From Horticoccus luteus (GTDB lineage Bacteria; Verrucomicrobiota; Verrucomicrobiia; Opitutales; Opitutaceae): 32,000 nt of DNA. Positions 2,608 to 28,344 of this stretch are shown here, in pieces; the first letter of the stretch is position 1; each line of letters opens with the position of its first letter. Made by a program: the position numbers and the translations under genes. A model generated the notes under the pieces. The model had not been told where the DNA came from. It ran no database searches and was given only the letters and a program-made list of their open reading frames with translations. The DNA lies in the NCBI RefSeq assembly GCF_019464535.1, contig NZ_CP080507.1:3000001-3032000 (forward strand). Reading direction: 5' to 3'.

Positions 2608-4650
2608 TTAGGGCGCGGTCGTGTCGAGCAAACGCCGCAGCTCGGCTTCGTCGATCACGCGAATTTGCAGGGTTCGGGCTCGCTCCAACTTCGCCCCTGC
2701 TCCTTCGCCGGCCACCACGAAATCCGTTTTCTGGCTCACCGAGCTCGCGACGCGTCCGCCCGCCGCCGTTATCCGCGCCGCCGCTTCCTCGCGCGTCAGC
2801 GTCGGCAGCGTGCCGGTTAACACAAAGGTCTTTCCCGCGAGCACCCCCGCCCTCTCTGCGGGCGTCGCTATCGCCCGCTGCACCGGCATTACCCCGGCCG
2901 CCCGGAAATCCGCCAGCATCGCCCGGGTCTGCGGCGCGGCAAAGTAATCCGCCACCGCTTGCGCCGTCGCCGGCGCAAATCCGCGCGCCTCCAAATCCTC
3001 GGCGCTGGCCGCCGTCAACGCGCCCAGCGTCTCATAGGCCGCCCCGAGCCGTTGCGCCGTGGCCTGCCCGACCTGCGGGATGCCGAGGCCATGCACCAGC
3101 CGCCACAACTCCGCGCGCTTGCTCGCCTCGATCGCGGCCAGCAGTCGATCGGTCGACCGCTCCACATTTCCTCCCAACGTGAGCAAGTCCGCTCGTTGCA
3201 ACCGATACAGATCAGGAAACCGCCGCACCCAGCGGTGCGCCACCAAAGTCTCCACCATCGCCGGCCCCAGCCCGTCGATATTCATCGCCGCTTTCGACAC
3301 GAAATGCTCCACGCGCCGCCGCACTTGCACCGGACAATCGCCGTTCGGGCAACGCACGGCGGCTCCGTCCTCCACCACCTTCGTCCCGCACGCCGGACAC
3401 GTCTGCGGAAAAACAAACGTCGTGCTCGTCGCTGGCCGACGCCCAAGATTTATGCCCACAATCGCCGGAATGATCTCGCCCGCCTTTTCCAGATACACCG
3501 TGTCGCCGATTCGCAAATCCCGGCGCGCGATCTCGTCGCGATTGTGCAACGTGGCGCGCGCGACCCGCGAACCCGCAATCTCCACCGGTGCAAGTTCCGC
3601 GACAGGCGTCAGCACGCCGCTGCGTCCCACTTGGATCGTGATGCCGCGCAGAGTCGTTTCCACCCGCTCCGGCGCGTATTTGTAAGCAATCGCCCAGCGC
3701 GGCGCGCGGTCGGTCTCTCCGAGCTCACGCTGGCCCTTTACGTCATCCAGTTTCACCACGGCCCCGTCCGTCGGAAAAGCATACGCGCCGCGGACACGTC
3801 CCATGGCTGCGATCGCCGCCCAGATTTCATCGGCGCTCCGGCCCACGCTCACCTGTTCGACTCCGGGCAACGCCCAACTCCGGATCAAGGCATGCAATTC
3901 CTGTTGCGAGGCAGGTGCCGCCGACGCCGGTTCGACCGCGCCCCAACCGTAAAACACCACCGCCAGCCCCCGCGCCTTTACCTCCGCCGGATCCTGCTGC
4001 TTGATCGTGCCGGCCGCCACGTTGCGAGGATGGGCGAACGGCGTTTCGCCCGCCGCTTCGCGCTCGCGATTGATGCGCTCAAACTCCGCACGCGGCAGAT
4101 AGATTTCTCCCCGCAATTCGATCAGATCGGGAATCGGATTCCGCGTGCCATCCGCGGTCGCCCGACGCAATTCCCGCGGCAGATGCCGCAACGCGAGCGC
4201 GTTGGCCGTGATATCGTCGCCTTCGCGGCCATTCCCGCGCGTCACGGCGCGGACCAGCCGCCCGTGTTCATACGTCGCACTCACCGCGAGACCGTCGAAT
4301 TTCGGCTCAATCACGAATCCCAAATCATCGCGTCCCAGCGCCGCGCTCACCCGGGCGTGAAACGCCCGCACGTCCGCCGCAGAATACGTTTTATCCAGGC
4401 TCAGCATACGCACGCGATGGCGATATGTTTTAAATCCCGTCGCGCGATCGTCGCCGATGTCGCCCTTCGCCTCCGCCCACTGCGGAAACGCCCGCTCCCA
4501 GGCGGCGAGTGTCAGCTTTAATTGATCATATTCATAGTCGCTGATCTCCGGGGCCGCTTGTCCAAAATAAAGCTGATCGTGGTGCGCGATCTCCGCACGC
4601 AGACCTTCGATTCTCTGCCGCGCCTCTGTGGCGGTCGCGTGGGCGATCAT
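2608..4650 (-). CDS. ligA: NAD-dependent DNA ligase LigA
   Basis: Full-length match to LigA architecture: N-terminal Ia domain (ISDYEYDQL), adenylation motif EPKFDGLA, Zn finger CPACGTKVVEDGAAVRCPNGDCPVQ, HhH region and C-terminal BRCT (GKTFVLTGTLPTLTREEA). The start was chosen at ATG 4650 (MIAHATATEARQRIEGLRAEI). Upstream in-frame ATGs at 4737 and 4818 are possible. Confidence 0.93.
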   Translation of the reverse strand: MIAHATATEARQRIEGLRAEIAHHDQLYFGQAAPEISDYEYDQLKLTLAAWERAFPQWAEAKGDIGDDRATGFKTYRHRVRMLSLDKTYSAADVRAFHARVSAALGRDDLGFVIEPKFDGLAVSATYEHGRLVRAVTRGNGREGDDITANALALRHLPRELRRATADGTRNPIPDLIELRGEIYLPRAEFERINREREAAGETPFAHPRNVAAGTIKQQDPAEVKARGLAVVFYGWGAVEPASAAPASQQELHALIRSWALPGVEQVSVGRSADEIWAAIAAMGRVRGAYAFPTDGAVVKLDDVKGQRELGETDRAPRWAIAYKYAPERVETTLRGITIQVGRSGVLTPVAELAPVEIAGSRVARATLHNRDEIARRDLRIGDTVYLEKAGEIIPAIVGINLGRRPATSTTFVFPQTCPACGTKVVEDGAAVRCPNGDCPVQVRRRVEHFVSKAAMNIDGLGPAMVETLVAHRWVRRFPDLYRLQRADLLTLGGNVERSTDRLLAAIEASKRAELWRLVHGLGIPQVGQATAQRLGAAYETLGALTAASAEDLEARGFAPATAQAVADYFAAPQTRAMLADFRAAGVMPVQRAIATPAERAGVLAGKTFVLTGTLPTLTREEAAARITAAGGRVASSVSQKTDFVVAGEGAGAKLERARTLQIRVIDEAELRRLLDTTAP

Positions 4651-4826
4651 CGTCGGATCCGCCGCTTCTCTCGTCACCCCGGCCAGACTCATGCCGCCAC
4701 ATAATAACCAAAGCGCGAGCCGGGGTATGCTCTTCATAACGCGCTTATATTCTTTTAATTCCGACTGGAGCAACCTGTTTCTCCCGCGGTGGCACCACCG
4801 CTCTGACGTGCGGTCCATGGTGCCGC

Positions 4827-15702: not shown

Positions 15703-16608
15703 ATGCGCGTCATCGCCCTTTTGAATCGCTCCGCGGGGACGCTCACCGGTAACCCTCATTCCGACCCGCTTTCCCCCGCTGCGCTGACCGCTGCCTTCCG
15801 CGCCGCCGCCGTCGATGCCGATGTGCGCCTCGTCGCACCGCAGGCCATGCGCGACGAAGTCGCCCACGCCGCCGCGCTCCAACCCGATGCTGTCGTCGTC
15901 GGTGGTGGCGATGGCACTCTCAATACCGCCGCAGGCGTGCTCGCCGGCGGCGCCACTCCCCTCGGCGTGCTCCCGCTCGGCACGCTCAATCACTTCGCTC
16001 ACGACCTGGGTCTTCCGCTGGAAATCGATGACGCCATTCGCGTGATCGCCCGAGGTCGCGTCCGCGCCATCGACGTCGGCGAAGTCAATGGCCGCGTTTT
16101 CCTCAACAACTGCTCTCTTGGTGCCTATCCCGCCGCCGTCCAACGCCGCGATTCCCTGCGCCGCACCCGCGGCTTCGGCAAATGGCGCGCCATGGTCGTC
16201 GCCTCGCTCGACGTGTTTCGACGCGTGCGTCGCCTGCGCGCCCAAATCGAAATCGACGGCGCGCCCCATTCCTGCCGCACGCCCCTGCTCTTTGTATCGA
16301 ACAACCACTACGACGGGCGGCTCTTCGCCTCCTCCCTTCGCGAACATCTCGACGAAGGCCGCCTCTGGCTTTACGTCGCGCGCACGCATCGCTTTTTCCC
16401 GCTCCTCCGTTCGGCGTGGCAGGCGCTCGTCCGCGGACTCGACGCCGCCGACGCTCTCGACACCCACTCCGCTCAACAGGTCACCATCGACGTCGGCCTG
16501 CCCAAAATCACCACCGGCCTCGATGGCGAACTCGTCACCTTCGCTGCGCCGCTCCGCTTTCGCATCCGCCCCCACGCACTGCGCGTGCTCGCTCCGCCGG
16601 CATCATGA
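15703..16608 (+). CDS. Diacylglycerol kinase family lipid kinase (YegS/BmrU-like)
   Basis: MRVIALLNRSAG..., the DAGK catalytic motif VVVGGGDGTLN, and GVLPLGTLNHFAHDLG. The start is set at ATG 15703. Confidence 0.8.
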   Translation: MRVIALLNRSAGTLTGNPHSDPLSPAALTAAFRAAAVDADVRLVAPQAMRDEVAHAAALQPDAVVVGGGDGTLNTAAGVLAGGATPLGVLPLGTLNHFAHDLGLPLEIDDAIRVIARGRVRAIDVGEVNGRVFLNNCSLGAYPAAVQRRDSLRRTRGFGKWRAMVVASLDVFRRVRRLRAQIEIDGAPHSCRTPLLFVSNNHYDGRLFASSLREHLDEGRLWLYVARTHRFFPLLRSAWQALVRGLDAADALDTHSAQQVTIDVGLPKITTGLDGELVTFAAPLRFRIRPHALRVLAPPAS

Positions 16609-16750
16609 CCGCTCCGATCTTCGCTTCACCGCCCCGCTGCCCGGCGCTCGCGGCCAACTCGCCGGCGTCGCCACGCCTCTCCGCCGCGCCGCTCTCTCCG
16701 GCCACGCCAACGTCGCACACTCCATCGGCACCCACCCGCCCTGTCGGCAC

Positions 16751-17560
16751 GTGAGAACGATCGTCCATCTTTCTGATCTGCACTTCGGCACCGAAGACCC
16801 CGTGCTCGCCGCCGCCGTCGCGCGCGACTTGCAAGCATCCCCGCCTTCGCTGCTCGTCGTCAGCGGTGATTTCACCCAACGCGCCCGGCGCCGCCAGTTC
16901 GCCGCCGCGCGCGCTTACCTCACCCAACTTCCATCGCCGCAACTCGTCATCCCCGGCAATCACGACGTGCCGCTCTACGACGTGATCCGCCGTTTCGCTG
17001 CGCCCCTCAACCGCTTCCGTCGCTACATCAGTCGCGACCTCGACCCGGTTTACCGCGACACCGAAATCATCGTTGCCGGCCTCAACACCGCCCGCTCCCG
17101 CACTTGGAAAAGCGGCCGGATCTCCCCCGCGCAACTCGCCCGCCTGCGCGCCACCTTCGGTCCCGCCGATGAACGTTTCAAAGTCGTTGTCACGCATCAC
17201 CCGTTCATCCCGCCGCCCGGCAGCGAAGCCGATGGTCGGATCGATCTCGTCGGTGGGGCTAACGCCGCCCTCACCGTGCTCGACGAGTGCGGAGTCGACC
17301 TCCTCCTCGCCGGCCATCTCCATCACGGCTACGCCGGCGACACGCGCACGCACTACCCTCATTCGCGCCGCTCAATCATCTCTGCGCAAGCCGGCACGGC
17401 CATCTCCCGCCGCATCCGCACGGAACCCAACGCCTATAATTTCCTCACCCTTGAGCGCACCCACATTGTGATCGAAATTCGCACGTGGAACGGCACCGCC
17501 TTTGCCCCCACCGCCGTCACCCACTACGATCTTCACGACGACGCCTGGATCGCGCGTTGA
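16751..17560 (+). CDS. Calcineurin-like metallophosphoesterase
   Basis: All MPE motifs appear in order: SDLHFG, SGDFT, PGNHD, VTHHP, AGHLHHG. GTG at 16751 is the first conventional start after the upstream stop. The start is uncertain (see findings). Confidence 0.72.
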   Translation: MRTIVHLSDLHFGTEDPVLAAAVARDLQASPPSLLVVSGDFTQRARRRQFAAARAYLTQLPSPQLVIPGNHDVPLYDVIRRFAAPLNRFRRYISRDLDPVYRDTEIIVAGLNTARSRTWKSGRISPAQLARLRATFGPADERFKVVVTHHPFIPPPGSEADGRIDLVGGANAALTVLDECGVDLLLAGHLHHGYAGDTRTHYPHSRRSIISAQAGTAISRRIRTEPNAYNFLTLERTHIVIEIRTWNGTAFAPTAVTHYDLHDDAWIAR

Positions 17561-17610
17561 CGCGCCGGCCCGGCGCGCACCGGTCGCGTTTTCCCGAGTC
17601 CAAGGCTTTC

Positions 17611-19308
17611 ATGCCACCGCGTTCTTCCACCTCGTCTCGCTCTTCTGCCACCCGCCGGAAACGCTCTTCCGCCCAGTCCGGCAATTCGCGCCAGCGCGCC
17701 GCGGCGCCCAAATCTTCGGCCGCCGCCCAACCGCGCGCCGGCACCCGCTCCCGTTCCACCCGAGCACCCGCGAACGCCGCCGCGGTGCCCTTCACCAATC
17801 TCGACAAAGTCCTCTTCCCCGCGAGTGGCACCACGAAAGGCGACGTCATCAAATACTACCTCGATGTCGCCCCCGTGCTCATCCCGCATTTCCGCGCCCG
17901 CCCCGTCACGCTCATCCGTTTTCCCGACGGCGTCACCGGCGAAAAATTCTACGAGAAAAACGCCCCGCGCTTCGCTCCGGCGTGGATCAAGACCGCCCCG
18001 GTCCCGCGCAGCGACGGCGGTGCGATCAATTACATCGTCATCAACGATGCCCGCACGCTCGCCTGGTGCGCCAATCTCGCCGCCTTGGAGCTGCATCCGT
18101 TTCTCCATCACGCCCGCGCCGTCCAACGCCCCACGCACCTCGTCTTCGATCTCGATCCCGGCGAAGGCGCCGACTTGCTCACCTGCATCGAGGTGGCGTT
18201 CCACGTCCGCGAAGCGCTCGGCCAGCTCCAGTTCAAAGTCTTTCCCAAAGTCTCCGGCTCGAAAGGCCTCCAGCTCTACGTCCCGCTCAACACCCCCGTC
18301 ACTTACGCCACCGCGAAACCTTTCGCCAAGGCCCTCGCCGAACTCCTCCGCACGCAGCACCCCGACCTCATCGTCAGCGACATGTCGAAGGCCCTCCGCC
18401 GCAAAAAGGTCCTCATCGACTGGAGCCAGAACGACGAAAAGAAAACCACCGCCGGCGTCTATTCGCTCCGCGCCAAACGCGATGAGCCCTTCGTTTCGCT
18501 CCCCGTCACGTGGGATGAACTTCGCCGCGCCGCCAAAAAAGACTCCGCCGACGCCCTTTTCTTCTCTCCCGCCGACGCGTTGAAACGCATTGCACGGCAA
18601 GGCGACCTATTCGCGCCCGTCCTCACGTTGAAGCAACGGCTTCCACGCGATTTCACCACCGCCGCCCGCTCCGCTCCGGCCGCCTCCTCCCGCCCGAAAT
18701 CCGCCGGGCGCGCGCCGGATTCTGCATCCACGGGCCTCGCCCGCTACCGCGCGAAACGCGATTTCACCCGCACCGCCGAGCCCTCGGGCAAGACGCCATC
18801 GCGTTCGCGGGCGCGCGGCGCGCAGCAGCTCCGCTTCGTCATCCAGAAACACGCCGCCTCGCGCCTCCACTACGATTTCCGCCTCGAGCTCGACGGCACC
18901 CTCAAATCCTGGGCCGTGCCCAAAGGCCTTCCCTACGAGCCCGGCATCAAACGCGCCGCCTTCGAAGTGGAAGACCATCCGCTCGATTACATCGACTTCG
19001 AAGGCACGATTCCGCCGGGCCAATACGGCGGCGGCACCGTGATGGTGTGGGACACCGGCACCTACGAACTCCTCTCCGGCGACCACCGCCGCGGTGATCT
19101 CAAACTCATGCTCCACGGCCAGAAACTGAAAGGCGAATGGCACATCTTTCGGATCAAGAGTGAAGACGACAAACCCGTGTGGCTGATCGTGAAAGCCAAA
19201 CCCGCCATGAAGCCGCTCAGCGCGCGACGCGAAAACCAATCCGTTCTCACGCAGCGCACGATGGAAAAAATCGCCTCCGACAACGACGCCGTGTGGGAAA
19301 GCCACTGA
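17611..19308 (+). CDS. LigD-like NHEJ end-processing protein: primase-polymerase (PolDom) + 3'-phosphoesterase (PE) domains, no ligase domain
   Basis: PolDom motifs: [49 protein letters not shown] motifs: [60 protein letters not shown]. The ORF ends right after the PE domain. Confidence 0.85.
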
Positions 19309-23887: not shown

Positions 23888-23961
23888 GCGGCTGTAGTTT
23901 AGGGGTAAAACCCCTGCCTTCCAAGCAGGTGTCCGGGGTTCGATTCCCCGCAGCCGCACCA
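23888..23961 (+). tRNA. tRNA-Gly (anticodon UCC), CCA encoded
   Basis: Hand-folded cloverleaf. Acceptor GCGGCTG/CAGCCGC, D stem GTTT/AAAC, anticodon stem CCTGC/GCAGG with loop CTTCCAA. T arm CGGGG-TTCGATT-CCCCG, discriminator A, then CCA. 74 nt. Confidence 0.9.
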
Positions 23962-24277: not shown

Positions 24278-26566
24278 ATGTCTGTCGAAACCTCCGCCGC
24301 CTCCCCGTCCGCCGCCACTTCGCCGCCCGCGCTCGACTACAGCCTCACCGGCGTCAACGCCACCCGCGCGATCGAGCTCGGCCTCGCGGAAGCCGAGTGG
24401 TATCAAAGCCCCGTGCCGCGCGACACGATGCGTGCGCTCCTCGAACGTCGCAACGGCCCCGCCCTTCGCGACACGCTCATCTGGTTCTCGCTGCTCTTCA
24501 TCACCGCCGCCGCGACCTATCTGCTCTGGGGCTCGTGGTGGGCGGTCCTGCCTTACCTCGCCTACTGCGTCCTCTACTCGCAGACCTCCGATTCTCGCTG
24601 GCACGAGACGAGCCACGGCACCGCGTTCAAAACCGATTGGATGAACAACGCGCTCTACGAAATCGCCTCGTTCATGGTGAAACGCGAAGCCACCCTCTGG
24701 CGCTGGAGCCACACCCGCCACCACAGCGATACGATCATCGTCGGCCGCGATCCCGAGATCAATTTCCCCCGCCCGCCTGACCTCAAGGGACTCTTCCTCG
24801 GCCTCTTTTCCCTCCATCCCGATTACTGGCAACGCCTCTGGCTCCACGCCACCGGCCGCATGCGAGCGGACGAGAAAGTTTTCGTCCCGCCCACCGAGTT
24901 CGGCAAAGTCTACTGGCGCGCGCGTCTCTATCTGGCGATCTACGTCGGCTCGCTCGCCCTTTCGTTCTACTGGCGCACGCCCCTGCCGGCGCTCCTCATC
25001 ATTTTCCCTAACGTCTTCGGCACCTGGCTGCTTTACGTTTACAACCTCACCCAACACGGCGGCCTCGCCGAAAACGTCCTCGATCACCGCCTCAACTGCC
25101 GGACCGTCTACATGAATCCCGTGAACCGCTTCATGTATTGGAATATGAACTATCACGTGGAGCATCACATGTTCCCCCTCGTCCCCTATCACCGCCTGCC
25201 GCAGTTGCACGCGCTCGTGAAGGACGACATGCCGCCGCCCTACCCCAACATCCTCTCCGCGTGGCGCGAAATCATCCCCACCGTCCGGCGCCAGCTCCGC
25301 GATCCCGGTTACTACGTCCGCCGTCCCCTCCCCGCGCCGAAGACCCACGCCGCCGCCGCGTATCCGGTTTCCACCGCGCAACCCGATTCCGCCGGCTGGC
25401 TCGACATCTGCCCCGCCGCCGACCTCACCGCCGCCAACGCCCTGCGCTTCGATCACGGTCGCCGCACCTACGCGCTCTACCGCACCGCCGACGGCGCCCT
25501 CTTCGCGACCGACGGCGTCTGCACCCACGGCAACACCCATCTCGCCGGCGGACTGGTCATCGGCACGCAAATCGAGTGTCCCAAACACAACGGCCGTTTC
25601 CATCTCCACGACGGCTCGCCCGCGCGCCCGCCCATCTGCCGCGGCCTCGCCACGTATCCGATCGAGGAACGCGCCGGCCGCCTCTGGCTCAACGTCGCCC
25701 ATCCCGGCGGCGCCGGCGCCCGCGCGCCCAAAACCTACCGCCTCCGCGTCGTCTCCAACCGCTCCGTCGCCACCTTCATCAAGGAACTCGTCCTCGAACC
25801 CATCGACGCCGCCGAGAAAATCGCGTTCACGCCCGGCGATTATCTCCAGCTCGATATTCCCGCCTACGAATTGATCCGCTTCCGCGAATTCGACATCCCC
25901 GCGCCCTACGCCGCCGTGTGGGAAGCTCAGCACGTCTTCGATCTCGTCGCGCGCAACCCCCAGGCCGGCCGCCGCAACAACTACTCGCTCGCGAGCAATC
26001 AGCAGACCGAACGCACGCTCCGCTTCAACGTCCGCATCGCCACGCCCCCGCCCGGCCAGGATTGCCCGCCCGGCGTCGGCTCCGCGTATGTGTTCAACCT
26101 CAAACCCGGCGACACCGTCACCGCCGTCGGCCCGTTCGGCGATTTCCATCTCAAGCCCACGCAAAAAGAAATCGTCTGCATCGGCGGCGGCGCCGGCATG
26201 GCTCCGCTCCGCGCGCAGCTCTCGCATCTTTTCGAAACCGAGTCCACCGCCCGCCGCGTGAGCTACTGGTATGGCGCGCGCTCGCGGCAGGAGATTTTCT
26301 ACGCCGACTATTTCGAGCAGCTCGCCGCCGCGCATCCCAACTTCACCTTCCACCTCGCGCTCTCGTCTCCGCTTCCCGAAGACAACTGGACGACGCACAC
26401 CGGCTTCATCCATGACGTCGTCTACGAGCAATATCTGCGTTCTCACCCGCATCCGCAGGCCGTCGAGTATTACCTCTGCGGCCCGCCGCAAATGATCCGC
26501 GCCTGCACCAAAATGCTGGCCGCCCTTGCCGTGCCGCAGACTCAGATCGCGTTCGACGAATTCTAA
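24278..26566 (+). CDS. Fusion protein: membrane fatty-acid-desaturase-family di-iron oxygenase + Rieske [2Fe-2S] ferredoxin + NqrF-like FAD/NAD(P)H oxidoreductase
   Basis: His boxes HETSH, HTRHH, HVEHH with TM segments (about nt 24278-25320). Rieske motif CTH-x16-CPKH (about nt 25397-25696). Reductase motifs RNNYS, NVRIATPPP, GPFGDF, GGGAGMAP, YWYGARS, CGPP (about nt 25730-26563). Single open frame, ATG at 24278. Confidence 0.85.
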   Translation: MSVETSAASPSAATSPPALDYSLTGVNATRAIELGLAEAEWYQSPVPRDTMRALLERRNGPALRDTLIWFSLLFITAAATYLLWGSWWAVLPYLAYCVLYSQTSDSRWHETSHGTAFKTDWMNNALYEIASFMVKREATLWRWSHTRHHSDTIIVGRDPEINFPRPPDLKGLFLGLFSLHPDYWQRLWLHATGRMRADEKVFVPPTEFGKVYWRARLYLAIYVGSLALSFYWRTPLPALLIIFPNVFGTWLLYVYNLTQHGGLAENVLDHRLNCRTVYMNPVNRFMYWNMNYHVEHHMFPLVPYHRLPQLHALVKDDMPPPYPNILSAWREIIPTVRRQLRDPGYYVRRPLPAPKTHAAAAYPVSTAQPDSAGWLDICPAADLTAANALRFDHGRRTYALYRTADGALFATDGVCTHGNTHLAGGLVIGTQIECPKHNGRFHLHDGSPARPPICRGLATYPIEERAGRLWLNVAHPGGAGARAPKTYRLRVVSNRSVATFIKELVLEPIDAAEKIAFTPGDYLQLDIPAYELIRFREFDIPAPYAAVWEAQHVFDLVARNPQAGRRNNYSLASNQQTERTLRFNVRIATPPPGQDCPPGVGSAYVFNLKPGDTVTAVGPFGDFHLKPTQKEIVCIGGGAGMAPLRAQLSHLFETESTARRVSYWYGARSRQEIFYADYFEQLAAAHPNFTFHLALSSPLPEDNWTTHTGFIHDVVYEQYLRSHPHPQAVEYYLCGPPQMIRACTKMLAALAVPQTQIAFDEF

Positions 26567-27552: not shown

Positions 27553-27729
27553 GTGCGCTGACGCGCTTCTCGCCTGCGAGCCGGATCCCGTCCGCAGATT
27601 TCGGCTTTGAGGTCTCGCAGAAATTCCTCAAGGTCGCCGCCCTTCCTCCGATTAAAGACCATTCCAGCTCCCTCTACTCCCCGCCCGCGACCGATCGCTC
27701 CCGCGTGCAGACCGGTTTTTACCGCACCC

Positions 27730-28344
27730 ATGAACCTGCTCCGTTCCATTGCCCTCACCGCCCTCCGTCGGGCGTTGCTCCCGCTTGCCATCGTGGCCTT
27801 CACCGCCAGCGCGTCGGCTCAAATTCTCACCATCAACGTCAGCCAGCCCGACGCGGTCGTCTTCACCGGCACCGGCGCGTTCGCCAGCACCAACTATAGT
27901 TCCAACGACATGGTGATCGTCGCCCTGAAGGGCTTCTTCACCTCCAGTGCGCCCACCGGCCAGTTCCTGAGCAACACCGACACCTCCACACTCATTCCCG
28001 CCGGCTCCAGCTCGACGGTGACCATGGCGCACCCGTCCTACCAGATTTCCAACTGGCCCAACGTCGTGGATTTGGAGCTCAGCCATGGCTTCGGCAGCAC
28101 CGCCGTCAGCTACACCACGACGACCGCCGCCCTGCTGGGTTATTCCACCTTCAATTTGTCCGGCTACGCGCTCCCTTCGGCCGGCGCCACCGGCAATGTT
28201 TACGGCTTCGATTATACGACGGTGATCGGCACGTATGTCGTAACGACCGGCGCCATTCCCGAGCCTGCAACCTACGCGCTCGGCTTCGGCGCCTTTGCCC
28301 TTCTCGGCGCTCTCCTGCATCGCCGACGTCTCAAACAAAGCTGA
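27730..28344 (+). CDS. PEP-CTERM sorting-domain secreted protein
   Basis: N-terminal signal peptide (LLPLAIVAFTASASAQ) and a Ser/Thr-rich body. C-terminal IPEPATYALGFGAFALLGALLHRRR gives the PEP motif, TM helix and basic tail. Confidence 0.82.
   Translation: MNLLRSIALTALRRALLPLAIVAFTASASAQILTINVSQPDAVVFTGTGAFASTNYSSNDMVIVALKGFFTSSAPTGQFLSNTDTSTLIPAGSSSTVTMAHPSYQISNWPNVVDLELSHGFGSTAVSYTTTTAALLGYSTFNLSGYALPSAGATGNVYGFDYTTVIGTYVVTTGAIPEPATYALGFGAFALLGALLHRRRLKQS

What the first reader, a model, noticed from the sequence alone, without database searches (positions are those of the whole stretch)
24278..26566. Self-sufficient three-domain oxygenase: desaturase-like di-iron domain + Rieske ferredoxin + NqrF-type reductase in one polypeptide
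One uninterrupted 762-aa ORF combines three modules. (a) A membrane fatty-acid-desaturase/hydroxylase-family domain with the three His boxes HETSH, HTRHH and HVEHH. (b) A Rieske [2Fe-2S] module (CTH-x16-CPKH). (c) A C-terminal domain matching the FAD/NADH domain of Na+-NQR subunit F nearly motif for motif (RxYS, NVRIATPPP, GPFGDF, GGGAGMAP, YWYGARS, PEDNW..TGFIH, CGPP). An entire NAD(P)H -> FAD -> Rieske -> di-iron electron chain would therefore sit in one protein. The same three roles are separate proteins in the rhizopine catabolism system: MocD (desaturase-like oxygenase), MocE (Rieske ferredoxin) and MocF (reductase). Ordinary bacterial membrane desaturases depend on trans-acting ferredoxin and reductase. 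The substrate cannot be read from the sequence; lipid desaturation, hydroxylation or O-demethylation are all possible. This is the strongest candidate in the window for an uncharacterised system.
Basis: partly seen in the sequence, partly recalled or inferred. Interest (0 to 1): 0.7.

Follow-up and report, generated by a model that had tools for sequence, protein, structure and literature searches.

The report
Fused MocDE-like oxygenase with NqrF-type reductase
One 762-residue protein joins a membrane di-iron oxygenase, its iron-sulfur electron carrier and an NADH-using reductase; databases call it a sodium-pump subunit (NqrF), but it is most likely an uncharacterised self-powered enzyme that modifies (probably de-methylates) sugars in polysaccharide-degrading bacteria.

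Summary
Window 24278-26566 (+) is one intact 762-aa gene of Horticoccus luteus (QYM78110.1). It has three well-supported domains: a MocD-like membrane di-iron domain, a MocE-like Rieske ferredoxin domain, and the FAD/NADH domain of NqrF.

It is not an assembly artefact. The same colinear architecture occurs in at least 520 species genomes of Verrucomicrobiota, Acidobacteriota, Planctomycetota, Lentisphaerota and Bacteroidota.

The first two domains are 54-55% and 41-46% identical to the separate MocD-like and MocE-like proteins of split mocDEF-like operons. The third domain is unrelated to the MocF-like reductase and was taken from NqrF. All database names ('NqrF') are wrong: the protein lacks NqrF's membrane helix and ferredoxin domain and is never in an nqr operon.

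In other genomes the gene usually sits in small AraC-regulated sugar operons. Partners include a mutarotase, a TIM-barrel protein shared with the split systems, GFO/IDH/MocA oxidoreductases and transporters, and some copies lie inside polysaccharide-utilisation loci. This points to a sugar or cyclitol substrate rather than a lipid. Oxidative O-demethylation is the most likely reaction, by analogy with MocDEF.

I found no characterised member. The window copy itself lacks the conserved neighbours. I rate it a new variant of a known kind, of moderate-to-high interest.

The parts
24278..26566 (+). Complete gene for the 762-aa three-domain protein (QYM78110.1 / WP_220161214.1, Horticoccus luteus), stop codon included
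   Evidence: GC3 0.82 in this frame
24335..25333 (+). MocD-like membrane di-iron oxygenase domain (aa 20-352; Pfam FA_desaturase core aa 86-324)
   Evidence: Pfam 117.5 bits; 54-55% identity over aa 20-352/369 to stand-alone MocD-like proteins
24470..24592 (+). First hydrophobic helical hairpin (aa ~65-105), predicted membrane anchor
   Evidence: Kyte-Doolittle segments 65-91; AlphaFold2 helices 59-82 and 87-101, pLDDT 90-97
24602..24616 (+). His box 1, H109-E-T-S-H113
   Evidence: H109, E110 and H113 invariant in 75 homologues
24710..24724 (+). His box 2, H145-T-R-H148-H149
24920..25048 (+). Second hydrophobic hairpin (aa ~215-257)
   Evidence: Kyte-Doolittle segment 234-257; AlphaFold2 helices 205-231 and 244-260
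25154..25168 (+). His box 3, H293-V-E-H296-H297 (the further invariant H260 and H270 lie upstream)
25334..25396 (+). Poorly conserved linker between the oxygenase and Rieske domains (aa 353-373)
   Evidence: Lowest conservation of any segment, 0.50; pLDDT dip to about 60
25397..25693 (+). MocE-like Rieske [2Fe-2S] ferredoxin domain (aa 374-472); cluster ligands C415, H417, C434, H437 are encoded at 25520-25588
   Evidence: Pfam Rieske 53.6 bits; TIGR02377 MocE_fam_FeS 109.4 bits; 41-46% identity to MocE-like proteins; PDB Rieske ferredoxins 2qpz and 1vck
25730..26563 (+). NqrF-type FAD- and NADH-binding reductase domain (aa 485-762), ending in the invariant D-E-F762
   Evidence: TIGR01941 326.9 bits covering model positions 128-403 of 405; PDB NqrF 131-406; Foldseek TM-score 0.96-0.98, rmsd 1.0-1.2 A, 44-47% identity

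Best explanation
The gene encodes a self-sufficient, membrane-anchored, NADH-dependent di-iron monooxygenase. It descends from a split MocD/MocE/MocF-type three-component system.

The inferred electron path is NADH -> FAD (NqrF-type domain, aa 485-762) -> Rieske [2Fe-2S] (aa 374-472) -> the histidine-ligated di-iron site of the MocD-like domain (aa ~20-352). That site would activate O2 on the cytoplasmic face of the membrane.

The substrate is most likely an imported, modified monosaccharide or cyclitol, not a lipid. The most likely reaction is hydroxylation of an O-alkyl (O-methyl) carbon. The resulting hemiacetal would collapse to the free sugar hydroxyl plus formaldehyde, as proposed for MocDEF on 3-O-methyl-scyllo-inosamine.

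Shown here: domain identities, conservation of cofactor ligands, homology to MocD-like and MocE-like proteins, the NqrF origin of the reductase, and gene-neighbourhood statistics. Inferred: the electron path, the membrane topology, the substrate class and the reaction.
For: Domains pass curated cut-offs. All metal and cofactor ligands are invariant in 75 homologues of 51-84% identity.

The N-terminal domain is 54-55% identical, and the Rieske domain 41-46% identical, to the products of adjacent genes in LacI-regulated mocDEF-like operons of S. meliloti pSymB and Acidiphilium pACMV1. The literature treats such clusters as mocDEF, a demethylating oxygenase system for rhizopine (PMC3538637, PMC13434037, PMC10107442).

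In a neighbour-joining tree of the N-terminal domain, the 75 fused proteins are monophyletic, and their sister clade holds the split-operon MocD-like proteins.

The C-terminal domain superposes on NqrF FAD-domain crystal structures (TM-score 0.96-0.98, rmsd about 1.1 A), including an NADH complex, 8ad4.

Context in 84 loci: a GalM-like aldose 1-epimerase lies immediately upstream in 25, an uncharacterised TIM-barrel protein immediately downstream in 22, and an AraC regulator is present in 26. In all, 59 of 82 loci carry at least one gene of the sugar cassette. The same TIM-barrel family follows the split operon in Acidiphilium (E = 2e-49).

A second cassette recurs in Lentimonas, Algisphaera, Luteolibacter and Roseibacillus: AraC / fusion / aldo-keto reductase / CE4 deacetylase / GFO_IDH_MocA / AP_endonuc_2 / SSF or MFS transporter. 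The Lentimonas copy lies among eight or more sulfatases. The Flavobacterium gilvum copy lies next to GH120-like genes and SusC/D. Locus L004 carries GH127, a sugar MFS transporter, Fe-ADH and ALDH.
Against: No member of the fused family, and no close split homologue other than the rhizobial MocDEF (genetic evidence only), has a demonstrated substrate. I did not have the sequence of the genetically studied MocD of S. meliloti L5-30, so it was not compared.

The window copy has none of the conserved neighbours. Its flanks are tRNA-Gly, a divergent pilC-like gene and a GNAT gene. A relative of the H. luteus paralogue also lacks them upstream.

Many Acidobacteriaceae copies sit in a different context, with membrane proteins, Yip1 and SulP.

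Pfam places the catalytic domain with fatty-acid desaturases, so lipid chemistry is not excluded. The domain arrangement in the AlphaFold2 model is uncertain (pTM 0.58). No coordinates were available, so cluster-to-cluster distances could not be measured.
Confidence: 0.6

Rival explanations
1. It is the same self-sufficient oxygenase acting on sugar- or cyclitol-like substrates, but the reaction is not O-demethylation. It could be C-H hydroxylation of a deoxy sugar, desaturation, or cleavage of a different ether such as a lactyl or carboxyethyl group.
For: The substrate class is supported by context, but nothing in the sequence fixes the reaction. The CE4 deacetylase, aldo-keto reductase and GFO/TIM-barrel partners would also suit an acetylated or amino-sugar substrate that carries no methyl ether.
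Against: The only family member with functional (genetic) evidence is proposed to be a demethylase (PMC13434037).
Confidence: 0.2
2. It is a self-sufficient lipid desaturase or hydroxylase acting on acyl chains of membrane lipids.
For: The Pfam FA_desaturase match, three His boxes and membrane hairpins. The window copy and many Acidobacteriaceae copies lack sugar genes and sit next to membrane proteins.
Against: The closest stand-alone relatives (54-55% identity) lie in LacI-regulated operons with inositol- or sugar-type enzymes, not lipid genes. Most fused copies lie in sugar cassettes or polysaccharide loci. No acyl-carrier, acyltransferase or lipid-synthesis neighbour recurs.
Confidence: 0.12
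3. It is a hydrocarbon or aromatic side-chain monooxygenase like AlkB or XylM, with fused electron-transfer partners.
For: It belongs to the same class III di-iron superfamily. A three-domain ferredoxin-reductase/ferredoxin/AlkB fusion is known and active (PMC8918992). One locus, L001, has two VanA-type Rieske oxygenase genes downstream.
Against: No AlkB model appears among the 25 NCBIfam matches shown. No alkane or aromatic catabolic genes recur in 84 loci. The host taxa found are mostly Verrucomicrobiota, Planctomycetota and Acidobacteriaceae, which I know as polysaccharide degraders rather than hydrocarbon degraders; that characterisation is background knowledge, not a tool result.
Confidence: 0.05
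4. It is what the databases say: subunit F of the Na+-translocating NADH:quinone reductase.
For: TIGR01941 scores 326.9 bits against a curated cut-off of 295. NCBI, UniProt and IMG name it NqrF.
Against: The match covers only model positions 128-403 of 405, so NqrF's membrane helix and plant-type [2Fe-2S] domain are absent. About 480 residues of unrelated MocD/MocE-like sequence precede the match. No nqrA-E neighbour appears in the window or in 90 related loci.
Confidence: 0.01

Closest known systems
[quoted passage not shown]
   Same: The oxygenase domain (54-55% identity) and the Rieske ferredoxin (41-46% identity) are homologous. The logic is the same: reductase -> Rieske ferredoxin -> membrane di-iron oxygenase. 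A TIM-barrel partner gene is shared, and both sit in sugar/inositol-type contexts.
   Different: Here the three roles are one polypeptide. The reductase is an NqrF-type FNR-fold domain, not the FAD-dependent oxidoreductase encoded in the MocF position (no detectable similarity). The regulator is AraC-type rather than LacI or MocR. The hosts are Verrucomicrobiota, Acidobacteriota, Planctomycetota and Bacteroidota rather than Proteobacteria.
ferr_ferrR_AlkB, the three-domain alkane monooxygenase with fused ferredoxin reductase and ferredoxin (Nie 2014 and Williams 2021, as reviewed in PMC8918992)
   Same: It is a self-sufficient class III membrane di-iron oxygenase with both electron-transfer partners fused. 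It is also mis-annotated in databases.
   Different: The catalytic subfamily differs (AlkB versus MocD-like). The domain order is opposite: the partners are N-terminal there and C-terminal here. It uses a plain ferredoxin rather than a Rieske ferredoxin, its reductase has a different origin, and its substrate is an alkane.
NqrF FAD/NADH domain of Na+-NQR (PDB 4u9u, 7qty, 8ad4, 7xk3 chain F)
   Same: The C-terminal 278 residues are 44-47% identical and superpose at about 1.1 A. By inference they bind FAD and oxidise NADH in the same way, including a C-terminal aromatic residue (F762).
   Different: There is no N-terminal membrane helix and no plant-type [2Fe-2S] domain; a Rieske domain occupies that position. 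It is not part of an nqr operon.
Cytochrome P450 (CYP236A) / ferredoxin / ferredoxin reductase system that demethylates 6-O-methyl-D-galactose in marine Flavobacteriia (PMC6292453, PMC10033563, PMC9400963)
   Same: This is a functional analogy only. It is an NAD(P)H-driven oxidative demethylation of a polysaccharide-derived methyl sugar, encoded in polysaccharide-utilisation loci and producing formaldehyde.
   Different: The catalyst is unrelated (a soluble haem-thiolate enzyme), it has three separate proteins, and its activity is demonstrated, whereas the activity here is only inferred.

Membership tests
Membrane (class III) di-iron fatty-acid desaturase/hydroxylase superfamily, Pfam PF00487 | Profile match above the curated threshold | tested here: met
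   117.5 bits against a cut-off of 29.7, aa 86-324 covering profile positions 2-248 of 253
Membrane (class III) di-iron fatty-acid desaturase/hydroxylase superfamily, Pfam PF00487 | Three histidine boxes (HxxxH, HxxHH, HxxHH) providing eight His ligands | tested here: met
   H109/H113, H145/H148/H149 and H293/H296/H297, all invariant in 75 homologues
Membrane (class III) di-iron fatty-acid desaturase/hydroxylase superfamily, Pfam PF00487 | Hydrophobic hairpins that anchor the domain in the membrane | tested here: inconclusive
   Two hydrophobic regions (aa 65-91 and 234-257) and long helices in the AlphaFold2 model. No dedicated topology predictor was available.
Membrane (class III) di-iron fatty-acid desaturase/hydroxylase superfamily, Pfam PF00487 | Bound di-iron centre and O2-dependent catalysis | not testable with these tools
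   Needs metal analysis, spectroscopy and an activity assay
MocD-type (rhizopine-oxygenase-like) subfamily | Close sequence relationship to the oxygenase gene of mocDEF-type operons | tested here: met
   54-55% identity over about 335-350 aa to proteins encoded upstream of a MocE-family ferredoxin and an FAD oxidoreductase. These are the sister clade in a neighbour-joining tree without bootstrap.
MocD-type (rhizopine-oxygenase-like) subfamily | Similarity to the genetically characterised MocD of S. meliloti L5-30 or R. leguminosarum 1a | not tested
PMC5789663 reports that mocDEF homologues in another rhizobium are 59.7-79.3% identical to it.
MocD-type (rhizopine-oxygenase-like) subfamily | Cognate MocE-family Rieske ferredoxin (TIGR02377) | tested here: inconclusive
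   It is the best Rieske model, with full-length coverage (2-100 of 101), but 109.4 bits is below the curated cut-off of 136.15. Identity to MocE-like proteins is 41-46%.
MocD-type (rhizopine-oxygenase-like) subfamily | Cognate MocF-type FAD-dependent ferredoxin reductase | tested here: not met
   No significant similarity to the MocF-position proteins (best E = 0.25). The reductase domain is NqrF-type instead.
MocD-type (rhizopine-oxygenase-like) subfamily | O-demethylation of a methylated cyclitol or sugar | not testable with these tools
   Supported only by gene context
NqrF, subunit F of Na+-NQR (TIGR01941) | Score above the curated equivalog cut-off | tested here: met
   326.9 bits against 295. 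This explains the database name.
NqrF, subunit F of Na+-NQR (TIGR01941) | N-terminal membrane helix plus plant-type [2Fe-2S] ferredoxin domain (model positions 1-127) | tested here: not met
   The match starts at model position 128 and at NqrF residue 131 of 7xk3_F/8a1t_F. The preceding 484 residues are MocD/MocE-like.
NqrF, subunit F of Na+-NQR (TIGR01941) | Encoded in an nqrABCDEF operon | tested here: not met
   No nqr neighbours in the window or in about 90 related loci
Rieske non-haem iron oxygenase (catalytic alpha subunit) | Rieske domain followed by a mononuclear-iron catalytic domain | tested here: not met
   The Rieske module is only about 100 aa and matches ferredoxin components (2qpz, 1vck, HcaC, AndAb). 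No catalytic-domain family was hit.

The most novel reading that the evidence does not exclude
This fused family would be the main aerobic route by which Verrucomicrobiota, Planctomycetota, Acidobacteriota and some Bacteroidota remove O-methyl (or other O-alkyl) groups from monosaccharides released from plant, algal and microbial polysaccharides. It would be a membrane di-iron counterpart of the P450 6-O-methyl-galactose demethylase, hidden in databases under the name NqrF.
Probability: 0.3. Interest if true: 0.75.

Novelty: new variant of a known kind. Interest (0 to 1): 0.6.

Why it matters
Methyl ethers block sugar catabolism. Only one enzyme system for removing them from carbohydrates, a P450 in marine Flavobacteriia, has been characterised biochemically (PMC6292453). 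A widespread self-sufficient di-iron enzyme that does this job in soil, freshwater and marine polysaccharide degraders would fill a gap in carbon-cycle biochemistry.

Such an enzyme would be a single-gene biocatalyst for selective O-dealkylation or C-H oxidation. It would also be a tractable model for electron delivery to class III membrane di-iron enzymes.

Independently of function, hundreds of genomes carry a wrong 'NqrF' annotation. This can lead to false inference of Na+-NQR respiration.

Tried and rejected
- **Single-sequence AlphaFold2** gave an unusable model (pLDDT 37). It was replaced by a run with a 75-sequence alignment (pLDDT 83.9).
- **The H. luteus paralogue** (P0002, 84% identity) could not be located on a contig. 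A near-identical relative on a 5.8-kb contig showed no sugar genes upstream.
- **A second three-domain subfamily.** Searching with the divergent fragment P0135 (40% identity) returned only the main family, so P0135 is an isolated outlier.
- **Literature.** Nine full-text searches for a characterised fused member or a MocD-type sugar demethylase found none.
- **Transcription signals.** The promoter and terminator scan around the gene found nothing.
- **Readings rejected.** An assembly artefact is ruled out by colinearity in at least 520 genomes. A true NqrF is ruled out by the missing domains and missing operon. A catalytic Rieske oxygenase is ruled out by the absence of a catalytic domain.
Full report
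**1. The observation**

Window 24278-26566 (+) is an uninterrupted ORF of 762 codons plus a stop. It is identical over its full length to the deposited Horticoccus luteus protein QYM78110.1/WP_220161214.1 (Opitutaceae, Verrucomicrobiota). Third-position GC is 0.82 in this frame. The 911-aa ORF on the opposite strand does not pass the GC3 > 0.75 filter, so I read it as a high-GC shadow.

- FA_desaturase, aa 86-324, 117.5 bits
- Rieske, aa 374-461, 53.6 bits
- FAD_binding_6, aa 550-624
- NAD_binding_1, aa 635-744

All listed motifs are at the stated places. The one exception is the FAD motif, which here reads RRNNYS (R-x-x-Y-S) rather than a strict RxYS.

In an alignment of 75 full-length homologues (51-84% identity), these residues are invariant:
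- the eight box histidines
- two further histidines, H260 and H270
- the Rieske ligands C415, H417, C434 and H437
- the glycine-rich NADH motif
- the C-terminal F762

The same colinear three-domain protein is encoded in at least 520 species-representative genomes. A frameshift or assembly join is therefore excluded.

**2. What the three domains are**

*N-terminal domain.* By tblastn and blastp it is 54-55% identical over about 335-350 residues to stand-alone 'fatty acid desaturase family' proteins of rhizobia, Ralstonia and Acidiphilium. In S. meliloti pSymB and Acidiphilium pACMV1 those genes head the operon LacI< / oxygenase / 'MocE family 2Fe-2S ferredoxin' / FAD-dependent oxidoreductase. 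This is the arrangement the literature calls mocDEF (PMC3538637). [quoted passage not shown]

*Rieske domain.* It is 41-46% identical to those MocE-like proteins. It matches TIGR02377 end to end, although below that model's cut-off (109 versus 136 bits). In the PDB it matches only ferredoxin-type Rieske proteins.

*C-terminal 278 residues.* These show no similarity to the MocF-position reductases. Instead they match NqrF:
- TIGR01941 model positions 128-403 of 405
- V. cholerae NqrF residues 131-406
- NqrF crystal structures, on which the AlphaFold2 model (pLDDT 83.9) superposes at TM-score 0.96-0.98 and rmsd 1.0-1.2 A with 44-47% identity

NqrF's own membrane helix and plant-type [2Fe-2S] domain are missing, and the Rieske domain sits exactly where they would be. 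The protein is thus MocD + MocE + the FAD/NADH half of NqrF.

**3. Evolution and distribution**

When a library of 1.84 billion proteins is clustered at 50% identity, the full-length architecture collapses to essentially one cluster (P0121, 62% identity). There is also one divergent fragment, P0135, at 40%. The other hits fall into four groups:
- fragments
- two-domain oxygenase-Rieske proteins of about 470-500 aa (33-44% identity)
- stand-alone MocD-like proteins
- genuine NqrF

In a neighbour-joining tree of the oxygenase domain, all 75 fused proteins form one clade, and their sister clade holds the split-operon proteins of S. meliloti and Acidiphilium. The two-domain fusions branch elsewhere (no bootstrap, so this is indicative only). 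This fits a single fusion event in which the original reductase was replaced.

Members occur in these groups:
- Opitutaceae, Chthoniobacterales, Terrimicrobiaceae, Akkermansiaceae and Methylacidiphilales
- Acidobacteriaceae
- Phycisphaerae
- Lentisphaeraceae
- Flavobacterium gilvum

Identity of about 70% between Verrucomicrobiota and Acidobacteriaceae suggests transfer between phyla.

Every named copy is annotated 'NADH:ubiquinone reductase (Na+-transporting) subunit F' or 'MocE subfamily Rieske protein'. The first name arises because a partial match exceeds the TIGR01941 cut-off.

**4. Gene context and likely function**

I called ORFs in 84 loci, clustered them and annotated the recurrent clusters.

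*Most common arrangement.* AraC< [MtaA/URO-D-like] / GalM-like aldose 1-epimerase / FUSION / roughly 300-aa TIM-barrel protein (weak PF01261) / [HIBADH-like, GFO_IDH_MocA, sugar-phosphate isomerase/epimerase, MFS].
- The epimerase is immediately upstream in 25 loci.
- The TIM-barrel gene is immediately downstream in 22.
- AraC is present in 26.
- 59 of 82 loci carry at least one cassette gene.
- An HMM of the TIM-barrel family also hits the gene that directly follows the split mocDEF-like operon of Acidiphilium (E = 2e-49), as well as genes in F. gilvum and Pelagicoccus. The split and fused systems therefore share a partner.

*Second arrangement.* Lentimonas, Algisphaera agarilytica, Luteolibacter algae and Roseibacillus persicicus share a tightly conserved operon: AraC< / FUSION / aldo-keto reductase / CE4 deacetylase / GFO_IDH_MocA / AP_endonuc_2 / SSF or MFS transporter.

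*Placement in polysaccharide loci.*
- The Lentimonas copy lies among eight or more sulfatase genes.
- The F. gilvum copy lies beside two GH120-like genes, an MFS transporter and SusC/D.
- Other copies lie near GH127, GH130, Fe-ADH and ALDH.

No lipid-synthesis, alkane or aromatic catabolic gene recurs. I therefore favour an imported sugar or cyclitol substrate. By homology with MocDEF, oxidative O-dealkylation that releases formaldehyde is the most likely reaction.

This is inference, and the window copy does not support it directly. It is flanked by tRNA-Gly(TCC) at 23888-23961, a divergent pilC-like gene with a sigma-54 response regulator, and a GNAT gene. It has none of the conserved partners.

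**5. Mechanism**

The inferred sequence is as follows:
1. NADH reduces FAD in the NqrF-type domain. The invariant C-terminal Phe is expected to stack on the flavin, as in NqrF.
2. Single electrons pass to the Rieske cluster.
3. The Rieske domain is tethered by a variable linker (aa 353-373, the least conserved segment). It delivers the electrons to the di-iron site formed by the three His boxes.

The two hydrophobic hairpins (aa ~65-105 and ~215-257) would place both termini and the His boxes on the cytoplasmic side, which is compatible with cytoplasmic Rieske and reductase domains. The inter-domain geometry could not be tested. The model's pTM is 0.58 and no coordinates were available.

**6. 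Comparison with known systems and novelty**

- *Closest relative by descent.* The split MocDEF-type system. This protein differs by fusion and by reductase replacement.
- *Closest architectural precedent.* The ferredoxin-reductase/ferredoxin/AlkB fusion, which has been expressed and shown active and is likewise mis-annotated (PMC8918992). Self-sufficiency in class III di-iron enzymes is therefore not new in principle.
- *Closest functional analogue.* The P450 system for 6-O-methyl-galactose.

I found no paper describing this architecture or a substrate for it. The library omits most subscription journals.

Verdict: this is a real, widespread, uncharacterised and systematically mis-named enzyme family. 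It is a new variant of a known kind, with a testable role in carbohydrate demethylation. Interest 0.6.

Noticed in passing
window 23888-23961 (+): A tRNA-Gly(TCC) gene lies 316 bp upstream of the fusion gene. The window copy also lacks every neighbour conserved in other genomes, so it may have been inserted at or relocated to a tRNA locus. GC content of the gene (0.65-0.66) is not anomalous, but 26-28 kb downstream it drops to 0.59.
   Followed up: partly
window 24278-26566 and homologues P0001-P0120, P0271-P0385: The family is systematically mis-annotated as Na+-NQR subunit F in NCBI (PGAP), UniProt and IMG. A partial match to TIGR01941 (model positions 128-403) exceeds the equivalog cut-off. 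This could cause false inference of Na+-NQR in these genomes.
   Followed up: yes
L024 12377-13288; L087 12512-13327; L006 10646-11467; L089 15120-15932: An uncharacterised family of roughly 270-300-aa TIM-barrel proteins (only a weak PF01261 hit, no NCBIfam or PDB match) accompanies both the fused gene and the split mocDEF-like operon. It is a candidate second enzyme of the pathway.
   Followed up: partly
L001 12377-13426 and 14322-15308: In one Verrucomicrobial contig the fusion gene is followed by two VanA-type Rieske oxygenase genes (PF00355 + PF19112) with no reductase gene visible nearby. Whether they borrow the fusion protein's reductase is unknown.
   Followed up: no
L031 7599-8867 and nine other loci: A 422-aa URO-D-fold protein distantly similar to MtaA/CmuA methylcobamide methyltransferases recurs upstream of the epimerase-fusion pair in 10 of 84 loci. 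That is intriguing next to a putative demethylase.
   Followed up: no
H. luteus genome, outside the window (P0002 = QYM79392.1): A second copy, 84% identical, exists in the same genome. Its context could not be retrieved. A close relative on a 5.8-kb contig (L093) has a divergent glyoxalase, DUF6498 and OGG genes upstream.
   Followed up: partly
P0130, P0137, P0145, P0149, P0156, P0174 (not in the window): Two-domain MocD-MocE fusions without a reductase (about 456-498 aa, 33-44% identity) exist and branch apart from the three-domain clade. This suggests independent fusion events.
   Followed up: partly
window 16088-17560 (+) and 17485-19308 (+): A LigD-like protein has primase-polymerase and 3'-phosphoesterase domains but no ligase-domain hit. 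It overlaps by 76 nt a 490-aa calcineurin-like phosphoesterase gene upstream. An NAD-dependent LigA lies at 2608-4818 (-).
   Followed up: no
window 27607-28344 (+): A 245-aa protein with a C-terminal PEP-CTERM sorting motif, followed by a YchJ/SEC-C protein and two M16 peptidases. None is conserved next to the fusion gene elsewhere.
   Followed up: no
L021-L023, L026-L027, L030, L032-L033 and others (Acidobacteriaceae): Acidobacteriaceae copies are about 70% identical to Verrucomicrobial ones, suggesting transfer between phyla. They often sit in a different conserved context: a convergent 332-aa multi-pass membrane protein with no Pfam match, plus Yip1, SulP and phospholipase-C-like genes.
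   Followed up: partly
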